Positions 3,098 through 38,505 of a stretch of 39,424 nucleotides of DNA are shown piece by piece. The first letter of the stretch is position 1. Each line of letters opens with the position of its first letter. The stretch is from Escherichia phage ETEP21B, in sequence record OR979722.1. The stretch is one strand, 5' to 3'. A program made the position numbers and the translations under genes. Below the pieces are notes generated by a model that saw nothing but the letters and a program-made list of their open reading frames with translations, did no database searches and was not told the DNA's origin.

Positions 3098-5749
3098 ATG
3101 ACTAACGTAATCAACGCACCAAAGAATGACTTCTCTGACATCGCTAACGCAATCCAGCCGTACAACATTCTGGCTGACCATTACGGTGCACAGCTTGCAG
3201 CTACACAGCTTGAGTTGGAACATGAAGCGCACACTGAGGGCGAGAAGCGTTTCCTTAAGGCAATGGAACGTCAAATCAAAGCGGGTGAGTTCGGTGATAA
3301 CGCAGTAGCTAAACCTCTCCTGTCATCCCTCGCACCGAAGTTCATCGAAGCGTGGGGCGCATGGTTCACCGAGGTGGAAGCGAAGCGTGGCAAGCGTCCA
3401 GTAGCCTACAATCTGGTACAGAAGGTTGCACCTGAAGCGGCAGCTTTCATCACATTGAAGGTCACACTAGCTTGTTTGACGAAAGAAGAGTTCACCAATC
3501 TGCAATCGGTCGCCACTAAGATTGGTCGAAGCATTGAGGATGAACTGCGTTTTGGTCGCATCCGTGACGAAGAGGCGAAGCACTTTAAGAACCACGTACA
3601 GGAGGCACTGAACAAGCGCGTTGGTATCGTCTACAAGAAAGCATTCATGCAAGCCGTAGAAGGCAAGATGCTTGATGCTGGTCAACTGCAAACCAAGTGG
3701 ACTACATGGACACCTGAAGAGACTATCCACGTTGGTGTGCGCATGTTGGAACTGCTCATAGGGTCTACTGGTCTCGTTGAGTTACACCGACCGTTTGCTG
3801 GTAACGTTGAGAAGGATGGCGAGTACATCCAGTTAACCGAGCAATACGTTGACCTGTTATCTAAACGTGCTGGCGCTCTGGCTGCGATTGCACCGATGTA
3901 TCAACCTTGTGTAGTCCCTCCGAAGCCTTGGACTTCTCCGGTCGGTGGTGGCTATTGGGCGGCTGGACGCAAGCCTCTCTCTCTGGTTCGCACTGGTTCC
4001 AAGAAGGGACTTGAGCGTTACAACGATGTGTACATGCCTGAAGTCTACAAGGCGGTGAACATCGCACAGAATACTCCTTGGAAGATTAACAAGAAGGTTC
4101 TGGCAGTGGTCAACGAGATTGTGAACTGGAAGCATTGCCCGGTTGAAGATGTCCCTGCTCTGGAACGTGGTGAACTGCCTGTCAAACCTGAAGACATCGA
4201 CACGAACGAGGCGTCACTCAAAGCGTGGAAGAAAGCGGCCTCCGCAATCTACCGCAAAGAGAAGGCACGAGTGTCACGCCGCATGAGCATGGAGTTCATG
4301 TTAGGTCAGGCCAATAAGTTCGCACAGTTTAAAGCTATCTGGTTCCCGATGAACATGGACTGGCGCGGTCGAGTGTATGCAGTCCCAATGTTTAACCCGC
4401 AAGGCAACGACATGACCAAAGGGCTGCTGACCTTGGCTAAAGGTAAACCAATCGGTGTCGATGGGTACTACTGGCTGAAGATTCACGGTGCTAACACTGC
4501 TGGTGTGGACAAGGTGGACTTTGCAGAACGCATCAAGTTCATTGAGGACAATCACGAGAACATCATGAGCGTTGCGGCTGACCCTATCGCTAACACTTGG
4601 TGGGCTGAACAAGACTCTCCGTTCTGCTTCCTCGCGTTCTGCTTTGAGTATGCGGGAGTCCAGCACCACGGGATGAACTACAACTGCTCTTTACCGCTGG
4701 CGTTCGATGGCTCTTGCTCTGGTATTCAGCACTTCTCCGCGATGCTCCGCGATGAGGTCGGTGGTCGTGCGGTTAACCTGCTTCCAAGCAAAGAGGTCCA
4801 AGACATTTACCGCATCGTTGCTGAACGTGTGAATGAGATTATGCAACAGGATGTAATCAACGGCACTGATAACGAAGTGGAAACCGTGACCAATAAGGAC
4901 ACTGGAGAAATCACTGAGAAGCTCAAGCTAGGAACGAAGGAACTGGCTGGTCAATGGTTGGCATATGGTGTGACTCGCAAGGTCACTAAGCGTTCCGTGA
5001 TGACCTTGGCTTATGGTTCCAAAGAGTACGGCTTCCGTGACCAAGTTCTTGAGGACACCATTCAGCCAGCTATTGACGATGGCAAGGGATTGATGTTCAC
5101 TCAACCGAACCAAGCGGCTGGCTACATGGCTAAACTGATTTGGAACGCGGTAACAGTGACAGTGGTCGCAGCGGTTGAAGCGATGAACTGGCTGAAGTCT
5201 GCGGCTAAACTTCTGGCTGCTGAAGTCAAGGACAAGAAGACCAAAGAGGTGCTTCGCAAACGTTGCGCAGTACATTGGGTAACTCCCGATGGCTTCCCGG
5301 TCTGGCAGGAATACAAGAAGCCAGTACAGACCCGCTTGAACCTGATGTTCCTAGGCCAGATTCGTCTGCAACCTACCGTGAACACCAACAAGGATAGCGG
5401 CATTGATGCACGTAAACAGGAGTCAGGCATCGCACCGAACTTTGTCCACTCAATGGATGGAAGCCACCTGCGAATGACTGTAGTGCGCTCCAATGAGGTC
5501 TACGGTGTGGAATCCTTCGCACTGATTCATGACTCCTTTGGTACTATCCCGGCTGACGCTGGCAACCTGTTTAAAGCTGTACGTGAAACGATGGTGAACA
5601 CCTACGAAGAAAACGATGTACTCGCAGACTTCTATGAACAGTTCGCTGACCAGTTGCACGAGTCACAGCTTGACAAGATGCCTGAGATGCCAGCTAAAGG
5701 CTCCCTCGACCTGCAAGAAATCCTCAAGTCAGACTTCGCGTTTGCTTGA
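3098..5749 (+). CDS. 1: Single-subunit DNA-directed RNA polymerase (T7 RNAP family), 883 aa
   Basis: Collinear with T7 RNAP over its whole length (same 883 aa; motifs PMYQPCVVPPKPW, RGRVYAV, DGSCSGIQHFSAM, specificity loop QPTVNTNKDSGIDA, C-terminal FAFA). Confidence 0.98.
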   Translation: MTNVINAPKNDFSDIANAIQPYNILADHYGAQLAATQLELEHEAHTEGEKRFLKAMERQIKAGEFGDNAVAKPLLSSLAPKFIEAWGAWFTEVEAKRGKRPVAYNLVQKVAPEAAAFITLKVTLACLTKEEFTNLQSVATKIGRSIEDELRFGRIRDEEAKHFKNHVQEALNKRVGIVYKKAFMQAVEGKMLDAGQLQTKWTTWTPEETIHVGVRMLELLIGSTGLVELHRPFAGNVEKDGEYIQLTEQYVDLLSKRAGALAAIAPMYQPCVVPPKPWTSPVGGGYWAAGRKPLSLVRTGSKKGLERYNDVYMPEVYKAVNIAQNTPWKINKKVLAVVNEIVNWKHCPVEDVPALERGELPVKPEDIDTNEASLKAWKKAASAIYRKEKARVSRRMSMEFMLGQANKFAQFKAIWFPMNMDWRGRVYAVPMFNPQGNDMTKGLLTLAKGKPIGVDGYYWLKIHGANTAGVDKVDFAERIKFIEDNHENIMSVAADPIANTWWAEQDSPFCFLAFCFEYAGVQHHGMNYNCSLPLAFDGSCSGIQHFSAMLRDEVGGRAVNLLPSKEVQDIYRIVAERVNEIMQQDVINGTDNEVETVTNKDTGEITEKLKLGTKELAGQWLAYGVTRKVTKRSVMTLAYGSKEYGFRDQVLEDTIQPAIDDGKGLMFTQPNQAAGYMAKLIWNAVTVTVVAAVEAMNWLKSAAKLLAAEVKDKKTKEVLRKRCAVHWVTPDGFPVWQEYKKPVQTRLNLMFLGQIRLQPTVNTNKDSGIDARKQESGIAPNFVHSMDGSHLRMTVVRSNEVYGVESFALIHDSFGTIPADAGNLFKAVRETMVNTYEENDVLADFYEQFADQLHESQLDKMPEMPAKGSLDLQEILKSDFAFA

Positions 5750-13153: not shown

Positions 13154-15268
13154 ATGTTACTATCCGACATCGAAACAAACGGGTTGCTGCACAACGTTAG
13201 TCAATTTCACTGTGCGGTGACTTACGACTACACAACTGACCAGTACATCCGTTACCGACCTGATGACTTTGGGGCGTACATTGATGCACTCGAAGCCGAG
13301 GTTGCTCGTGGTGGTCTCATTGTGTTCCACAACGGTCACAAGTATGACGTTCCTGTTATCGAGAAGCTGGCGAAGCTGATTCTGAATCGTGACGTTAAGT
13401 TCCCGAAAGAGAACGTTTTGGATACCCTCGTGATGTCCCGCTTGATTTACTCTAACATCAAAGACACCGATGCTGGTCTGCTCCGTGCTGGTAAGCTGCC
13501 GGGTAAACGCTTTGGTTCCCACGCTCTGGAGGCTTGGGGTTATCGCTTAGGCGAAATGAAGGGTGAGTACAAGGACGACTTCAAGGCTTCACTGGCTGAG
13601 TCTGGTGAAGAATACGTTGATGGTATGGAATGGCTCCTGTTCAACGAAGACATGATGGAATATAACGTTCAAGACGTTGTAGTCACCAAGGCTCTCTTCG
13701 AGAAACTCTGTAGCAACACATTCTATTTCCCTAACGAGACACCTGCTGGAAGCACAGAAGCAGACCGTTTCTGGAATGGTAGCCTTGAGGCTGTCAAACT
13801 GGAACATGATGCTGCGTGGTTGTTAGCCAAGATGGAACGTAACGGTTTCCCGATTGACGTCAAGTCTCTTGAGAACCTGTACGCAGAACTCGCTGGTCGC
13901 CGTGGTGAGCTACTCGTAGAGTTAACCAATACGTTTGGCTCATGGTACTCCGCTAAAGGCGGTGTGGAAGCATTCAGGCACCCTCGTACCGGAAAGCCAC
14001 TCACTAAGTATCCTCGTGTGAAGTATCCGAAACAGGGTGGCATCTTTAAGAAGCCGAAGAACAAGAAGCAACGTGAAGGTCTGGAACCTTGTGAACTGGA
14101 CACTCGTGATTATGTAGAGGGCGCTCCGTATACGCCTGTAGAGCACGTTGTGTTTAACCCTGCAAGTCGTGACCACATCACCCGTGTGCTTACCAAAGCT
14201 GGATGGGTTCCCGTTGAGTTCACTCCGAGTGGTGCACCAAAGGTAGACGATGAGGTCTTAGAGCACGTTAAGGTAGACGACCCTGATGCACAGCGTTGCA
14301 TTGAGTTGATTAAAGAATACCTTATGATTCAGAAACGTATCGGTCAGGTTGCTGAGGGTGATAACGGCTGGCTCCGAATGATTGGAGACGATGGTCGTAT
14401 TCACGGAAGCGTTAACCCGAACGGTGCGGTAACTGGTCGTGCAACTCATAGTTTCCCTAACGTGACACAGGTGCCTTCCATCCGTGCTGCATATGGCGAA
14501 CCTTGCCGTGCTGCTTTCGGTGCCGAGCACAACATGAAAGACGGTAAGCCAGACCCTTGGATTCAAGTTGGTGTGGATGCGTCCGGCCTTGAGCTACGCT
14601 GCTTGGGTCACTTCATGTATCGCTATGATGAGGGTGAGTACGTTGAGACCATCCTAACTGGTGACATCCATACGAAGAACCAGTTGGCTGCTGGTCTACC
14701 AACTCGTGACAACGCTAAGACGTTTATATATGGGTTCCTCTATGGCGCTGGTGCTGCGAAGATTGGACAGATTGTTGGGGGTACTGCCGAAGACGGTAAG
14801 CGACTCATCAAGAACTTCCTTGAGCAAACTCCGGCTATCGCTGCGTTACGTGAAGCAATCACAGGGACACTCGTCAAGGACTCTAAGTGGGTCGGTGGCG
14901 AACAGAAAGTAACTTGGAAGCGCCGATGGGTTCGTGGGTTGGATGGTCGTAAAGTCCATGTCCGTAGTCCTCATGCTGCGCTGAACACCTTGTTGCAGTC
15001 TGCTGGTGCACTTATTTGTAAACTGTGGATTGTCAAGACAGAAGAGATGCTCCTTGAGATGGGCTATAAGCACGGCTGGGATGGTGACTTCTGCCTCATG
15101 GGGTGGATACACGATGAGCAACAGCTTGCTTGCCGTACTGAAGAGATTGCCAAAGTTGTAATCGAAGTATCTCAACAGGCTATGCGCTGGGTTGGAGACC
15201 ACTTTAACTTCCGGTGCCAACTGGATACTGAAGGAAAGATGGGGCCGAATTGGGCTGTATGCCACTGA
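13154..15268 (+). CDS. 5: DNA polymerase gp5 (family A, with 3'-5' exonuclease), 704 aa
   Basis: Collinear with T7 DNA polymerase (same 704 aa; DIETNGL exo motif, GLIVFHNGHKYDVP, KTFIYGFLYGAG, HDE motif, C-terminal GPNWA.CH). Confidence 0.98.
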   Translation: MLLSDIETNGLLHNVSQFHCAVTYDYTTDQYIRYRPDDFGAYIDALEAEVARGGLIVFHNGHKYDVPVIEKLAKLILNRDVKFPKENVLDTLVMSRLIYSNIKDTDAGLLRAGKLPGKRFGSHALEAWGYRLGEMKGEYKDDFKASLAESGEEYVDGMEWLLFNEDMMEYNVQDVVVTKALFEKLCSNTFYFPNETPAGSTEADRFWNGSLEAVKLEHDAAWLLAKMERNGFPIDVKSLENLYAELAGRRGELLVELTNTFGSWYSAKGGVEAFRHPRTGKPLTKYPRVKYPKQGGIFKKPKNKKQREGLEPCELDTRDYVEGAPYTPVEHVVFNPASRDHITRVLTKAGWVPVEFTPSGAPKVDDEVLEHVKVDDPDAQRCIELIKEYLMIQKRIGQVAEGDNGWLRMIGDDGRIHGSVNPNGAVTGRATHSFPNVTQVPSIRAAYGEPCRAAFGAEHNMKDGKPDPWIQVGVDASGLELRCLGHFMYRYDEGEYVETILTGDIHTKNQLAAGLPTRDNAKTFIYGFLYGAGAAKIGQIVGGTAEDGKRLIKNFLEQTPAIAALREAITGTLVKDSKWVGGEQKVTWKRRWVRGLDGRKVHVRSPHAALNTLLQSAGALICKLWIVKTEEMLLEMGYKHGWDGDFCLMGWIHDEQQLACRTEEIAKVVIEVSQQAMRWVGDHFNFRCQLDTEGKMGPNWAVCH

Positions 15269-15279
15269 GGAGGTAAACT

Positions 15280-15615
15280 ATGGGAGGCGTTACTACGCTT
15301 AGGTTTCACACTATGCCGACTGGCTGTGTCGTCTGCGTCTCCCATAAGAGGAACAAAGATGGTTACTTCCGGTACAGCGTAGGGTCATCCAGAAAGGGTG
15401 AGAAGATGGCGTTTATGTTCCACCGATTCGTGTGGGAGAACGTCAACGGAAAGATACCAGAAGGGTATGAGATAGACCATCTATGCCTAAACCGTGGGTG
15501 CTGTAACGTAGAGCACCTACAGTGTATCCCCAAGCGGGAACATGTAATCAAGACTAACCGAGAGCGGAAGGTCATCACATTGAAAGCAAAGGAGAAATAT
15601 CATGGCTATTACTAA
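15280..15615 (+). CDS. HNH endonuclease (homing-endonuclease-like), 111 aa
   Basis: HNH motif EIDHLCLNRGCCNVEHLQ with upstream HRFVWE; GAGGAGG RBS; lies between DNA polymerase and gene 5.5. Confidence 0.8.
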   Translation: MGGVTTLRFHTMPTGCVVCVSHKRNKDGYFRYSVGSSRKGEKMAFMFHRFVWENVNGKIPEGYEIDHLCLNRGCCNVEHLQCIPKREHVIKTNRERKVITLKAKEKYHGYY

Positions 15616-15886
15616 ACGTTTTAAAGTATCATTTGAAGTTACCGCTGTAATCAACTCTGAGATGGAGAAAGGCTTCACCGAGGAACTGGTTCATTTGGCT
15701 AAGAAGGCTGCGGCTGGTGAGAAGATTAGTCCTCGTGACCGTGAACTTCTGGTACAAGCGCTGACTCATGGTGTCGAGGGTGCTATCTCCTTTGCCGCCA
15801 AACAGGGTATGCGAGAGTTCATTCGTACCGAGTTACCGGAAGATGGTCTGAAGGTTTCTCCAGCAACTATCCGTGAGGTGAAGTAA
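15602..15886 (+). CDS. 5.5: gp5.5-like protein (H-NS-binding protein in T7), 94 aa
   Basis: MAITKRFKVSFEVTA...SPATIREV resembles T7 gp5.5. Confidence 0.85.
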   Translation: MAITKRFKVSFEVTAVINSEMEKGFTEELVHLAKKAAAGEKISPRDRELLVQALTHGVEGAISFAAKQGMREFIRTELPEDGLKVSPATIREVK

Positions 15887-16095
15887 TGGGTGAATATCTT
15901 CGTGTACTGGCGGCTATCAAAAGCTGCCCTAAGACCTTTCAGTCTAACTACGTGCGCAACAATGCGTCACTGGTGGCTGAGGCTGCGAGCCGTGGTCATA
16001 TCTCTTGCCTATCAGTCGATGGGCGTAATGCTGGCGCTTGGGAAGTAACAGGCGCTGGCGTCCGTTTCCTGAAGAAGATGGGAGGTTGCGTATGA
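15886..16095 (+). CDS. 5.7: gp5.7-like protein, 69 aa
   Basis: LAAIKSCPKTFQSNYVRNNASLVAEAASRGHISCL matches T7 gp5.7. Confidence 0.9.
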   Translation: MGEYLRVLAAIKSCPKTFQSNYVRNNASLVAEAASRGHISCLSVDGRNAGAWEVTGAGVRFLKKMGGCV

Positions 16096-16277
16096 GTCTG
16101 CACACAGACAACGTTACAGTGACCCGTGAGGCGTGGAACGACATGCAAGCATACATTCAATCACTGGAGAAGAAAGCTGAGAAGCTGGACGCTCTGGAGG
16201 CTGGTGGTGTGGACAATTGGTCCGGCTACTGGTTCTCTATGGAAGAGGCTGGTCTCACAGGGGAGGACGACTTATGA
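16092..16277 (+). CDS. 5.9: gp5.9-like protein (RecBCD inhibitor in T7), 61 aa
   Basis: AWNDMQAYIQSLEKK resembles T7 gp5.9; start at ATG after GGAGG. Confidence 0.75.
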   Translation: MSLHTDNVTVTREAWNDMQAYIQSLEKKAEKLDALEAGGVDNWSGYWFSMEEAGLTGEDDL

Positions 16278-36271: not shown

Positions 36272-38032
36272 ATGTCACAATCCCAAGAAGCTAAGAACGC
36301 GCTAATCATTGCGCAACTTAAGGGTGACTTCGTGGCCTTCCTGTTCGTCTTATGGAAGGCTCTGAACTTACCTAAACCAACCAAGTGTCAGATTGATATG
36401 GCACGAACACTCGCTAATGGAGACCACAAGAAGTTTATCCTTCAGGCGTTCCGTGGTATCGGCAAGTCCTTTATCACCTGTGCGTTCGTTGTGTGGGTAT
36501 TATGGCGTGACCCTCAACTTAAGGTGCTCATTGTGTCTGCCTCTAAGGAACGTGCGGATGCTAACTCCATCTTCATCAAGAACATCATCGACCTCTTACC
36601 GTTCCTCTCTGAGTTGAAACCTCGACCGGGACAGCGAGACTCCGTGATTAGCTTTGATGTTGGCTTGGCTAAACCCGACCACTCACCTTCTGTGAAGTCT
36701 GTGGGTATCACTGGTCAGTTGACTGGTAGCCGTGCTGACATCATTATTGCAGATGACGTTGAGGTTCCCGGTAATAGCTCTACGAGTTCTGCCCGTGAGA
36801 AGCTCTGGACGTTGGTAACTGAGTTTGCTGCATTACTTAAGCCGCTGCCTACCTCTCGTGTTATCTACCTTGGGACACCTCAAACCGAGATGACTCTCTA
36901 CAAGGAACTCGAAGATAACAAAGGGTACAGCACCGTAATCTGGCCTGCACAGTATCCACGCAATGATGCTGAGGCTCTCTACTATGGGGACCGCTTGGCT
37001 CCTATGCTGAAGGCTGAGTACGATGAAGGCTTTGAGTTACTCCGTGGTCAACCTACTGACCCTGTTCGATTCGATATGGATGACCTCCGTGAACGTGAAC
37101 TCGAATATGGTAAAGCTGGTTACACTCTTCAGTTCATGCTTAACCCTAACCTTAGTGATGCCGAGAAGTACCCACTACGACTCCGTGACGCTATCGTGTG
37201 CGCTGTGGACCCTGAACGTGCCCCATTGTCTTACCAGTGGTTGCCGAACCGTCAGAACCGCAATGAGGAACTCCCTAACGTTGGTCTGAAGGGTGATGAC
37301 ATTCACAGCTTCCATGTGTGTTCCTCTAAGACCGCTGAGTACCAGCAAAAGATTCTCGTCATTGACCCATCGGGTCGTGGTAAGGATGAAACAGGTTACG
37401 CAGTCCTCTACACCCTTAACGGCTACATCTACTTGATGGAAGTCGGTGGGTTCCGTGGTGGCTACGATGACCCTACCTTAGAGAAGCTCGCTAAGAAGGC
37501 CAAGCAGTGGAAGGTACAGACGGTCGTACACGAGAGTAACTTCGGTGATGGTATGTTCGGTAAGGTATTCTCTCCGGTTCTCCTGAAGCACCACAAGTGT
37601 GCCTTAGAAGAGATTCGTGCTCGTGGCATGAAGGAGATGCGTATCTGCGATACTATCGAACCGTTGATGGGTGCACACCGCCTTATCATCCGTGACGAAG
37701 TAATCCGTGAGGACTACCAGACCGCTCGTGACCTCGATGGGAAACATGATGTTCGCTACAGTGCGTTCTATCAGATGACCCGTATGACTCGCGAGAAGGG
37801 CGCTGTGGCACACGATGACAGACTTGATGCTATCGCATTGGGTATCGAGTTCCTTCGTGAAGGGATGCAGGTGGACTCTAAGGTGGGCGAAGAAGCTATG
37901 ACCCTTGAGTTCCTTGAGCACCACATGGAGAAACCTATCATCGGTGGTGACATGGCTCGTGAGTTAGTGTCTGGCGGCGTGGACATCTACTACGAGGATG
38001 ATGGTGATGGAGAGTGCTTCATTGAGTGGTAA
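36272..38032 (+). CDS. 19: Terminase large subunit gp19 (ATPase/nuclease), 586 aa
   Basis: Collinear with T7 gp19 (same 586 aa; [91 protein letters not shown]-terminal FIEW). Confidence 0.98.
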
Positions 38033-38055: not shown

Positions 38056-38505
38056 ATGAGAGTGGCAATTGACCCTATCAGTGGTTGCCACAACTTCCTT
38101 GGGTGTAAGACTTCGGGTGGCTACGGTAGAATCCGTGTAGGTGGTGTCCATTGGATGGCCCACAGATACGCTCTATCAGTTCACCTGAAGCGTCCACTAG
38201 AGGAAGGCTGTGTGGTAATGCACTTATGTGATAACCCTGCCTGTGTTAACCCTGAGCATCTCAGAGAGGGAACTCAGAAGGAGAACATGCAGGACTGTAA
38301 GGACAAGGGAAGGATGCACAAGGCTACAGGCCCTAGAGCACCTCGTCGTCCGTACATCAATAAAATCAACCAGCGATACAATGAGAGACTTAAGGCTGTC
38401 CTTGAGGCCGATGGGTCTGACTTGCAGGTCGCTAAGAAGCTGGGCCTGAACCTACAGTGGGTCAAGAAGGCTCGTAAAGGTAAACTAGTTATGCAAGAAG
38501 TGTGA
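38056..38505 (+). CDS. HNH endonuclease with C-terminal helix-turn-helix-like region, 149 aa
   Basis: Motif GYGRIRVGGVHWMAHRYA...HLCDNPACVNPEHL..GTQKEN; AAGGAGGT RBS; immediately downstream of terminase. Confidence 0.8.
   Translation: MRVAIDPISGCHNFLGCKTSGGYGRIRVGGVHWMAHRYALSVHLKRPLEEGCVVMHLCDNPACVNPEHLREGTQKENMQDCKDKGRMHKATGPRAPRRPYINKINQRYNERLKAVLEADGSDLQVAKKLGLNLQWVKKARKGKLVMQEV

What the first reader, a model, noticed from the sequence alone, without database searches (positions are those of the whole stretch)
15280..15615. Second HNH endonuclease between DNA polymerase and gene 5.5
A 111-aa protein with the motif EIDHLCLNRGCCNVEHLQ follows gene 5 with a strong RBS. This is the slot of T7 gene 5.3. 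Together with the terminase-proximal HNH gene the genome carries at least two free-standing HNH genes, a hallmark of intron-less homing elements that mediate marker exclusion between related phages.
Basis: partly seen in the sequence, partly recalled or inferred. Interest (0 to 1): 0.5.

Follow-up and report, generated by a model that had tools for sequence, protein, structure and literature searches.

The report
T3-type gene 5.3 homing endonuclease
This is an intact copy of a known selfish gene of T3/T7-like phages: a small DNA-cutting enzyme gene beside the DNA polymerase gene that spreads into related phages, so it is real but ordinary.

Summary
Window 15280..15615 (+) is a 111-aa ORF with a GGAGGT ribosome-binding site, lying between gene 5 (DNA polymerase) and gene 5.5. 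It matches Pfam HNH_3 (E 5e-18).

The window is a Berlinvirus genome (T7-like, Autographiviridae). The protein is 81% identical to phage T3 gp5.3 and 98% identical to an annotated HNH endonuclease of phage Carena. It is 48-53% identical to the I-TslI-type HNH encoded inside the group I intron that splits gene 5 at motif C in other T7-like phages. It is not homologous to T7's own gp5.3, which is a PD-(D/E)XK nuclease in the same slot.

Most close relatives lack the gene and have only about 20 nt between genes 5 and 5.5. In the window it sits in a roughly 0.6-kb block, made of the last 234 nt of gene 5 plus the HNH gene. That block is 98-99% identical to Carena, inside a 285P/PhiV-1-like backbone that is 34% divergent over the gene 5 part of the block.

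Every free-standing carrier examined, from four genera, has TGGATH or TTTGTC just 5' of the intron-insertion-site equivalent (window 15112|15113). Intron-bearing genes and most HNH-less genes have TGGGTN there. dN/dS is 0.05-0.2.

Verdict: a functional free-standing homing endonuclease of a known kind. A second HNH gene lies at 38056..38505.

The parts
15280..15615 (+). T3-type gene 5.3: a free-standing HNH (HNH_3) homing endonuclease, 111 aa. The stop codon TAA (15613-15615) overlaps gene 5.5 by 14 nt.
   Evidence: ORF. Pfam HNH_3 E 5e-18. 81% identity to T3 gp5.3. 98% identity to the Carena HNH endonuclease. All family-invariant residues are present: C16, D66, H67, C69, C74, N76, H79, H88, N93.
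15269..15274 (+). Shine-Dalgarno sequence GGAGGT of the HNH gene, 5 nt upstream of the ATG. It abuts and overlaps the gene 5 stop codon (15266-15268).
   Evidence: Read directly from the sequence.
15104..15118 (+). Equivalent of the I-TslI-type intron insertion site in gene 5 (motif C, W-I-H|D-E; the junction is 15112|15113). This is the inferred recognition region of the enzyme, present here as the variant TGG ATA CAC GAT GAG. The Ile codon is 15107-15109; sensitive-type genomes have GTN there.
   Evidence: The intron position was mapped in L008, L044, L073, L074 and L095-L101. That this is the cleavage site is inferred from the literature on the T3 ortholog (PMC2790892, PMC3984707).
15035..15268 (+). 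The last 234 nt of gene 5, inherited as one block with the HNH gene. All 61 informative sites match the Carena/S523/Yepe2 allele. There are 79/234 mismatches to 285P but only 5/234 to Carena.
13154..15268 (+). Gene 5, DNA polymerase. It is uninterrupted (704 aa), with no intron at either motif B or motif C.
   Evidence: No Rfam match in 14900-15950.
15590..15641 (+). Right-hand junction. It holds the gene 5.5 RBS AGGAGA (15590-15595), which lies inside the HNH coding sequence, and the almost invariant first ~35 nt of gene 5.5. The sequence switches from the Carena-like type back to the 285P/PhiV-1/Kvp1-like type between 15591 and 15634.
   Evidence: Alignment A1. Informative sites.
15602..15886 (+). 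Gene 5.5 (H-NS inhibitor family), the downstream flank. It is 99% identical to 285P, PhiV-1 and Kvp1, and 66% identical to Carena.
   Evidence: Pfam Phage_T7_55. Mismatch counts.

Best explanation
[quoted passage not shown] It has no phage promoter of its own. It is transcribed with gene 5 and gene 5.5 and translated from its own strong RBS.

Inferred mechanism: in a mixed infection with a related phage that lacks the gene, the enzyme nicks or cuts that phage's DNA polymerase gene at the conserved motif-C sequence (...TGG GTN CAY|GAY GA...). This site lies about 170 bp upstream of the empty 5/5.5 intergenic site. It is the same position where I-TslI-type group I introns are inserted in other T7-like phages.

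Repair then uses the carrier genome as template. The homology arms are gene 5 on the left and the conserved start of gene 5.5 on the right. Repair copies the HNH gene and the neighbouring 3' end of gene 5 into the recipient.

The carrier is inferred to be protected from its own enzyme because its copy of the site reads TGG ATA CAC (Val to Ile in the polymerase).

Shown here: homology, position, sporadic distribution, the linked block, the site variant in all carriers, and purifying selection. Inferred: the cleavage position, nicking versus double-strand cutting, and immunity through the G-to-A change.
For: (1) Family: Pfam HNH_3 E 5e-18. 81% identity to T3 gp5.3 and 81% to phiYeO3-12 gp5.3.

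(2) Relation to the intron enzyme: 48-53% identity to the 131-138-aa HNH ORF inside a 601-nt group I intron (Rfam Intron_gpI, full-length match, E 2.6e-7). That intron splits gene 5 between WVH and DE in L008, L044, L073/74 and L095-L101. Its size and ORF length match the published I-TslI intron of phages PhiI and W31 (PMC1995217).

(3) Sporadic distribution: of 114 phage records matching the locus, only 8 cover the HNH gene. Yepe2, Berlin, BSP161, 285P and many others have 16-27 nt between gene 5 and gene 5.5.

(4) Linked block in the window: 61/61 informative sites in 15035-15268 are of the Carena/S523 type. There are 79/234 mismatches to 285P there, against 3/285 in gene 5.5. Carena shows the opposite pattern: 5/234 in the gene 5 end, 2/321 in the HNH gene and 97/285 in gene 5.5. 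The last 252 nt of gene 5 are 68% identical to Kvp1 and PhiV-1, against 93-96% for the rest of the gene.

(5) Site variant: all free-standing carriers examined have TGGATH or TTTGTC, never TGGGTN. These carriers come from Berlinvirus, Teetrevirus, Kayfunavirus and Przondovirus. All 8 distinct intron-bearing exon junctions read TGGGTGCAT|GATGA. Thirty of 49 distinct HNH-less alleles read WVH (Fisher p = 0.003 on distinct alleles, an upper bound on independence). Within the Kayfunavirus-like set (25 loci, two of them only 44% identical and unscored, so genus was not checked) the counts are 4/4 against 4/18.

(6) dN/dS is 0.05-0.2 among orthologs, and all invariant residues are intact.

Against: There is no biochemical or genetic test of this particular protein. 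The primary paper on T3 gp5.3 (Bonocora & Shub 2009, Curr Biol 19:223) could not be read here, so the exact cleavage coordinates and the basis of self-immunity come from secondary citations and my memory of its abstract.

The WIH allele also occurs in 16 of 49 distinct HNH-less alleles, so it is not specific to carriers. Some of the association may reflect shared ancestry.

These genomes are mosaic in many places. Other identity switches occur at 13300-13400 and 13900-14200, so a recombination boundary next to the gene is not unique evidence.

The ββα-metal fold was not confirmed structurally. The single-sequence AlphaFold model had pLDDT 48, and PDB sequence searches gave nothing significant.
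Confidence: 0.85

Rival explanations
1. It is a decaying or inactive remnant of a homing endonuclease gene that is no longer mobile and is simply carried along.
For: Homing endonuclease genes are expected to degenerate once fixed. The free-standing proteins lack the ~35-aa C-terminal helix-turn-helix-like extension of their intron-encoded relatives. C-terminal lengths vary among orthologs from 97 to 120 aa.
Against: The ORF is intact and every family-invariant residue is present. dN/dS is 0.05-0.2, even between genera whose synonymous sites are saturated. Near-identical copies (2/321 mismatches to Carena) sit in otherwise diverged flanks, which indicates recent movement. T3 gp5.3, which also lacks the extension, is reported to be active (secondary citations PMC10448857 and PMC2790892; my memory of Bonocora & Shub 2009).
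Confidence: 0.05
2. It is a domesticated nuclease that benefits the phage, for example by excluding co-infecting relatives or acting on host or competitor DNA, and is maintained for that benefit rather than by homing.
For: Purifying selection is compatible with a selected function. Cutting a competitor's polymerase gene would itself be exclusionary. A second, unrelated nuclease family (PD-(D/E)XK, T7 gp5.3) occupies the same slot in other phages.
Against: The gene is absent from most close relatives, which grow without it. The linked block and the site variant are what homing predicts. Exclusion and homing are two outcomes of the same cleavage, so this is more an added benefit than a true alternative.
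Confidence: 0.08
3. It is a packaging-associated HNH protein of the kind that assists terminase in HK97-like phages.
For: It is a small HNH protein in a phage genome. Such proteins are cited in PMC8845596.
Against: It lies 20 kb from the terminase, among DNA-metabolism genes. Most Berlinvirus genomes lack it. T7-like phages package from concatemers with terminal repeats and need no HNH partner (established knowledge).
Confidence: 0.01

Closest known systems
Phage T3 gp5.3 (and phiYeO3-12/SH2 gp5.3), a free-standing HNH homing endonuclease next to gene 5 (Bonocora & Shub 2009, Curr Biol 19:223)
   Same: 81% amino-acid identity over 99 residues. The gene sits in the same position, directly after the gene 5 stop and before gene 5.5. 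It has the same HNH_3 domain. The Ile variant at the motif-C site is the same.
   Different: The window protein has a 10-residue longer C-terminus that reads through the gene 5.5 RBS and start codon. It is in a Berlinvirus rather than a Teetrevirus. Activity has not been tested for this copy.
I-TslI, the HNH endonuclease encoded in the 601-nt group I intron of the DNA polymerase gene of phages PhiI and W31 (PMC1995217; described as a nicking enzyme with a 9-bp core in PMC8136825)
   Same: It is homologous (48-53% identity to the I-TslI-like ORFs). It shares the invariant residues. It is reported to act at the same position of intron-less polymerase genes (secondary citations).
   Different: I-TslI lies inside an intron at motif C and has an extra ~35-aa C-terminal HTH-like region. 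The window gene is free-standing, about 170 bp downstream of that site, and the window polymerase gene has no intron.
Phage T7 gp5.3 (also Kvp1 gp5.3)
   Same: It occupies the same slot between gene 5 and gene 5.5 and is also a nuclease-family protein.
   Different: It has a different fold family (Pfam PDDEXK_5, E 1e-10) and no detectable sequence similarity.
I-HmuI (phage SPO1 DNA polymerase intron; PDB 1U3E), the structural paradigm of HNH_3 nicking homing endonucleases
   Same: It belongs to the same Pfam family type and targets a phage DNA polymerase gene.
   Different: Sequence similarity is only marginal (E 0.29). I-HmuI is larger (174 aa), intron-encoded, and found in a Bacillus phage.
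Phage T4 free-standing endonucleases (MobE, Seg proteins)
   Same: They are free-standing genes that cut a neighbouring conserved gene in relatives lacking them and spread with co-conversion of flanking markers (PMC2790892, PMC2988022).
   Different: The phage lineage is unrelated. MobE does not cut at an intron insertion site (PMC2790892).

Membership tests
HNH (His-Me finger) nucleases, Pfam HNH_3 | Profile match above the curated threshold across the whole domain | tested here: met
   HNH_3 E 5e-18, 64.9 bits against a cut-off of 24.8, profile positions 2-45 of 46.
HNH (His-Me finger) nucleases, Pfam HNH_3 | Conserved catalytic and metal-binding residues (the D-H pair and downstream N/H) and structural cysteines | tested here: met
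   D66, H67, N76, H79, H88 and N93 and C16, C69 and C74 are invariant across 17 free-standing and intronic homologs, and all are present in the window protein. The roles of individual residues are inferred from their position in the motif.
HNH (His-Me finger) nucleases, Pfam HNH_3 | ββα-metal fold | tested here: inconclusive
   The single-sequence AlphaFold model had mean pLDDT 48.5 and was unusable. There was no significant PDB sequence match.
HNH (His-Me finger) nucleases, Pfam HNH_3 | Nuclease activity | not testable with these tools
   Requires biochemistry.
T3 gp5.3-type free-standing homing endonuclease | Orthology to T3 gp5.3 | tested here: met
   81% identity, E 9e-66.
T3 gp5.3-type free-standing homing endonuclease | Location immediately downstream of gene 5 and upstream of gene 5.5, not inside an intron | tested here: met
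   No Rfam hit in 14900-15950.
T3 gp5.3-type free-standing homing endonuclease | Presence/absence polymorphism among close relatives with clean empty sites | tested here: met
   Empty sites of 16-27 nt occur in BSP161, 285P, Yepe2, Berlin and many others. Kayfunavirus-like set: 4 loci with the gene and 18 without.
T3 gp5.3-type free-standing homing endonuclease | Flanking sequence co-inherited with the gene (a co-conversion tract) | tested here: met
   The block 15035-15600 is shared with Carena (7 mismatches in 555 nt) inside a 285P-like backbone. The same linkage is seen in the Kayfunavirus-like loci.
T3 gp5.3-type free-standing homing endonuclease | The carrier's own target site differs from the site in genomes lacking the gene | tested here: met
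   All carriers examined have TGGATH or TTTGTC. All intron-bearing alleles and most HNH-less alleles have TGGGTN. That this difference confers immunity is inferred.
T3 gp5.3-type free-standing homing endonuclease | Cleavage of HNH-less polymerase genes at the intron insertion site, and super-Mendelian spread in crosses | not testable with these tools
   Known for the T3 ortholog only through secondary citations (PMC2790892, PMC3984707, PMC10448857).
Intron-encoded homing endonuclease (I-TslI type) | The ORF lies inside a group I intron that interrupts gene 5 | tested here: not met
   The window gene 5 is one continuous 704-aa ORF. There is no Intron_gpI match in 14900-15950. The control intron in L008 was detected.
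T7 gp5.3 family (PD-(D/E)XK) | Sequence or profile similarity to T7 gp5.3 / PDDEXK_5 | tested here: not met
   BLASTP found nothing meaningful. Pfam assigns T7 and Kvp1 gp5.3 to PDDEXK_5 and the window protein to HNH_3.

The most novel reading that the evidence does not exclude
The single G-to-A change upstream of the intron-insertion-site equivalent (TGGGTN to TGGATH, Val to Ile; in the FVH alleles GG to TT, Trp to Phe) may be the immunity determinant against this endonuclease family. It sits in polymerase motif C, next to the catalytic Asp-Glu. If so, a selfish nuclease is driving amino-acid change in the active-site motif of an essential replicase across four genera. HNH-less phages that carry WIH would then be 'vaccinated' survivors or former carriers. 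Part of this may already be in the primary T3 paper, which I could not read.
Probability: 0.5. Interest if true: 0.3.

Novelty: already known. Interest (0 to 1): 0.15.

Why it matters
It matters little for discovery. The gene family, its position and its homing behaviour have been described for T3, and near-identical copies are already annotated as HNH endonuclease in GenBank. Its practical value is in annotation and in explaining mosaicism. It marks a recombination block at the 3' end of the polymerase gene. It also predicts that this phage will convert or exclude HNH-less relatives in mixed infections, which is relevant to phage cocktails and to phylogenies built from gene 5. The carrier-specific motif-C variant gives a simple, testable candidate for the enzyme's recognition and immunity determinant.

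Tried and rejected
(1) Homology to T7 gp5.3 was rejected. BLASTP found nothing, and Pfam places T7 and Kvp1 gp5.3 in PDDEXK_5.

(2) Homology to the ORF in the Yepe2/Berlin polymerase intron was rejected. That ORF is an Endonuclease_7 protein in a different intron, at motif B. My first guess that motif B (window 14725|14726) was the target site was therefore dropped in favour of motif C.

(3) Rfam at gathering threshold found no intron in L008 or L002. The permissive search did recover a full-length Intron_gpI match in L008.

(4) PDB sequence searches with the protein and with a 17-sequence profile gave no significant relative. I-HmuI scored only E 0.29.

(5) The single-sequence AlphaFold model was too poor to use (pLDDT 48.5), so no fold search was run.

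(6) The primary papers (PMC2856452, PMC529087, PMID 19200727) are not held. Searches for 'F-TslI' and for T3-specific text found nothing.

(7) A search for a phage promoter belonging to the gene found none between 10092 and 17276.

(8) A role as a terminase-associated packaging HNH was rejected on position and distribution.

Full report
**1. Observation**

The window contains an ORF at 15280..15615 (+) of 111 aa. It begins at the first ATG after an in-frame stop. A GGAGGT Shine-Dalgarno sequence at 15269-15274 lies 5 nt before the ATG and abuts the gene 5 stop codon (TGA, 15266-15268). The quoted motif EIDHLCLNRGCCNVEHLQ is residues 64-81.

Upstream is an uninterrupted 704-aa DNA polymerase (13154..15268). 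Downstream is gene 5.5 (15602..15886; Pfam Phage_T7_55, E 4e-18), followed by gene 5.7. The HNH stop codon (15613-15615) overlaps gene 5.5 by 14 nt, and the gene 5.5 RBS AGGAGA (15590-15595) lies inside the HNH reading frame.

The ORF matches Pfam HNH_3 at E 5e-18, with 64.9 bits against a cut-off of 24.8. It also matches PHROG endonuclease families, the best at E 2e-27.

**2. What genome this is**

The first 25 kb are 90-92% identical over 93-97% of their length to Berlinvirus phages such as PhiV-1, 285P, Carena and BSP161 (Autographiviridae, Studiervirinae). No phage promoter consensus lies between 10092 and 17276. The gene therefore has no promoter of its own and is transcribed with its neighbours.

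**3. What the protein is related to**

- It is 98% identical to the annotated HNH endonuclease of phage Carena.
- It is 81% identical to gp5.3 of phiYeO3-12 and 81% identical to gp5.3 of T3, in the same genomic position.
- It is not related to T7 gp5.3 or Kvp1 gp5.3. Those occupy the same slot but belong to the PD-(D/E)XK family (PDDEXK_5, E 1e-10 and 4e-11).
- It is 48-53% identical to a 131-138-aa HNH ORF inside an intron that splits gene 5 between ...WVH and DE... (polymerase motif C). This is seen in the Teseptimavirus AH67C600_Q5 and in several IMG/VR contigs.

That intron is 601 nt long and gives a full-length Rfam Intron_gpI match (35.4 bits, E 2.6e-7; below the gathering score, as expected for an intron with an inserted ORF). 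Its size and ORF length equal those published for the I-TslI intron of phages PhiI and W31 (PMC1995217).

The intronic proteins carry an extra ~35-residue C-terminal region with weak helix-turn-helix matches. The free-standing proteins lack it.

In a 17-sequence alignment of both groups, C16, N25, D27, G28, Y29, R31, H48, R49, D66, H67, C69, R72, C74, N76, H79, H88, N93 and R96 are invariant. All are present in the window protein.

**4. Distribution**

- Of 114 phage records matching window 14800-16100, only 8 cover the HNH gene.
- In IMG/VR loci chosen with the polymerase C-terminus, most Studiervirinae have 16-27 nt between the gene 5 stop and the gene 5.5 start.
- The slot is otherwise filled by the T3-type HNH, by the T7-type PD-(D/E)XK gene, or by a ~230-270-nt insert encoding a 75-aa ORF of unknown function, as in PhiV-1.
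- The HNH gene occurs in Berlinvirus, Teetrevirus, Kayfunavirus and Przondovirus.
- In some of these genomes it is more conserved relative to the window (77-84% aa) than the adjacent polymerase C-terminus (58-61%).

**5. Linked block in the window**

Sliding-window comparison and a multiple alignment show that the window resembles 285P, PhiV-1 and Kvp1 on both sides of the locus but not within it.

| Region | vs 285P (mismatches) | vs Carena (mismatches) |
|---|---|---|
| 14300-15000 (gene 5) | 29/701 | 34/701 |
| 15035-15268 (last 234 nt of gene 5) | 79/234 | 5/234 |
| 15280-15600 (HNH gene) | gene absent | 2/321 |
| 15602-15886 (gene 5.5) | 3/285 | 97/285 |

In 15035-15268, 61 of 61 informative sites match the Carena/S523/Yepe2 allele.

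Over the whole polymerase gene, the last 252 nt are 68% identical to Kvp1 and PhiV-1, against 93-96% for the rest. In that segment the window is closer to phiYeO3-12 (77%) than to its own genus mates.

The left switch lies between 14998 and 15035. The right switch lies between 15591 and 15634, inside the almost invariant first ~35 nt of gene 5.5. So a ~0.6-kb block, made of the 3' end of gene 5 plus the HNH gene, travels as a unit and is joined to at least three different gene 5.5 alleles (window/285P type, S523/BSP161 type, Carena/JSS1 type).

A caveat applies. These genomes are mosaic elsewhere too, for example at 13300-13400 and 13900-14200. The boundary alone is therefore not proof of homing.

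**6. Target-site analysis**

The I-TslI-type intron insertion site corresponds to window 15112|15113, 167 nt upstream of the HNH start codon.

- **Intron-bearing genomes:** all 8 distinct exon junctions read TGGGTGCAT|GATGA.
- **Free-standing carriers:** every carrier examined reads TGG-ATH-CAY (Trp-Ile-His) or TTT-GTC-CAY (Phe-Val-His), never TGG-GTN. The carriers are:
  - Berlinvirus: the window, S523, Carena and JSS1.
  - Teetrevirus: T3, T7M, phiYeO3-12, LL2 and 10164RH.
  - Przondovirus: two Klebsiella phages.
  - Kayfunavirus: SD6, TH16, UFJF_EcSW4, EcoIv10b, LM33P1 and CHRF_30001.
  - Several further IMG/VR contigs.
- **HNH-less, intron-less genomes:** 30 of 49 distinct alleles read Trp-Val-His. 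Fisher p = 0.003 when distinct alleles are treated as independent, which overstates their independence.
- **Within the Kayfunavirus-like set of 25 loci (two of them only 44% identical and unscored; genus not checked):** 4 of 4 carriers are non-WVH, against 4 of 18 non-carriers. Those four non-carriers share the carriers' whole C-terminal polymerase allele.

I infer that the G residues of TGGGT are part of the recognition sequence, and that the carrier alleles are the immune form. This is inference, not demonstration.

**7. Selection**

Nei-Gojobori dN/dS among orthologs is 0.05-0.2, including pairs whose synonymous sites are saturated. All orthologous ORFs inspected are intact. The protein is under purifying selection and is not a decaying remnant.

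**8. Literature**

From memory of its abstract, Bonocora & Shub (2009, Curr Biol 19:223) showed three things. T3 gene 5.3 is a free-standing homolog of the intron-encoded I-TslI. It spreads efficiently into empty sites of related phages. Both enzymes cleave intron-less polymerase genes at identical positions. The paper is not held in the library.

Papers I could read say the following:
- I-TslI nicks sites with a 9-bp core (PMC8136825).
- phiYeO3-12/SH2 gp5.3 is a homing endonuclease missing from the sister phage SH1 (PMC4925675).

**9. Mechanism**

The best explanation is that the gene is a working free-standing homing endonuclease. It is expressed with the DNA-metabolism genes. In mixed infection it nicks or cuts the motif-C site of a relative's polymerase gene. 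The break is repaired from the carrier genome, using gene 5 and the conserved start of gene 5.5 as homology arms. Repair installs the HNH gene together with the immune 3' end of gene 5.

- **Shown here:** family membership, orthology, position, sporadic distribution, the linked block, the site variant in carriers, and purifying selection.
- **Inferred:** the exact cut site, nick versus double-strand break, and the immunity mechanism.

Rivals: an inactive remnant is argued against by selection and by near-identical copies in diverged flanks. A domesticated exclusion nuclease is compatible with the data, but is really a consequence of the same cleavage. A packaging-associated HNH is excluded by position and by dispensability.

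**10. Second HNH gene**

ORF 38056..38505 (+), 149 aa, matches HNH_3 at E 1.1e-9. It lies directly after the terminase large subunit (36272..38032) and before a phage promoter at 38572. It is only distantly related to the gene 5.3 protein (phmmer E 5e-5) and closer to the Kvp1 '2.8' endonuclease (E 2e-16). Relatives annotate it as an HNH homing endonuclease or gp7.7 homolog. No third HNH ORF was found.

**11. Verdict**

However, this is a known gene family with an experimentally characterised ortholog and near-identical annotated copies. Novelty: already known. Interest: low. The one modestly interesting product of this check is the carrier-specific substitution in polymerase motif C. It is a concrete candidate for the recognition and immunity determinant.

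Noticed in passing
window 38056-38505 (+): A second free-standing HNH gene (149 aa, HNH_3 E 1.1e-9) lies immediately after the terminase large subunit and just before a phage promoter at 38572. It is closer to the Kvp1 '2.8' endonuclease than to gp5.3. Relatives annotate it as an HNH homing endonuclease or gp7.7 homolog. Some relatives match only in two pieces, which suggests further polymorphism.
   Followed up: partly
slot between gene 5 and gene 5.5: L007 2984-3340 (T7), L003 3486-3866 (Kvp1), L136 3969-4196 (PhiV-1), L014-L016, L030, L038: The same intergenic slot holds four alternative states in close relatives: empty, the T3-type HNH, the T7-type PD-(D/E)XK nuclease, or a ~230-360-nt insert (in PhiV-1 a 75-aa ORF with no Pfam match). 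It is a hotspot of gene turnover next to the polymerase.
   Followed up: partly
L002 2245-2924 (Yepe2), L040 (IMG/VR contig; phage identity not checked), L064; L097 1753-2012 and 2404-3023: A different intron interrupts gene 5 at motif B (after ...DNAKTF). In Yepe2 and L040 it carries an Endonuclease_7-type ORF (E 4e-23). L097 appears to have two introns in gene 5: an ORF-less one at motif B and the I-TslI-type one at motif C. The window has neither.
   Followed up: partly
L012 about 3110-3160 (IMG/VR contig, HNH-less): This polymerase allele is a recombinant. It is carrier-type up to ...CLMGWIHDEQQLA and non-carrier-type from ARTQEIADK onward. The crossover lies within about 20 nt downstream of the intron-insertion-site equivalent, where a repair-associated junction would be expected.
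   Followed up: no
L010 (BSP161), L011, L002 (Yepe2), L040, L154, L158, L166, L167: These HNH-less genomes carry the carrier-type (Trp-Ile-His) polymerase 3' allele with a clean empty site. They could be former carriers that lost the gene, or genomes that acquired only the resistant allele.
   Followed up: no
window about 16095-16277 (+): A gp5.9 (RecBCD inhibitor) homolog (Pfam Phage_T7_Gp5_9, E 1.3e-16) is present here and in PhiV-1 and Kvp1, but absent from S523, Carena, BSP161 and 285P. This is another presence/absence polymorphism about 0.5 kb downstream of the HNH gene.
   Followed up: partly
L137 3981-4316 (JSS1); L139 (10164RH); L144 (UFJF_EcSW4); L140 (SD6): Public annotations miss this gene. 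In JSS1 the intact HNH ORF is unannotated. In 10164RH and UFJF_EcSW4 an opposite-strand ORF is annotated in its place. In SD6 only a truncated ORF is annotated.
   Followed up: yes
alignment A2 columns 101-151 (L008, L095, L097, L099, L101, L073): The intron-encoded homologs share a conserved C-terminal ~35 aa (...YW..T.CTGT.L...F.VSFSAAC.WIREWKA, weak HTH matches) that all free-standing gp5.3 proteins lack. How the shorter free-standing enzyme achieves site recognition is unclear.
   Followed up: no
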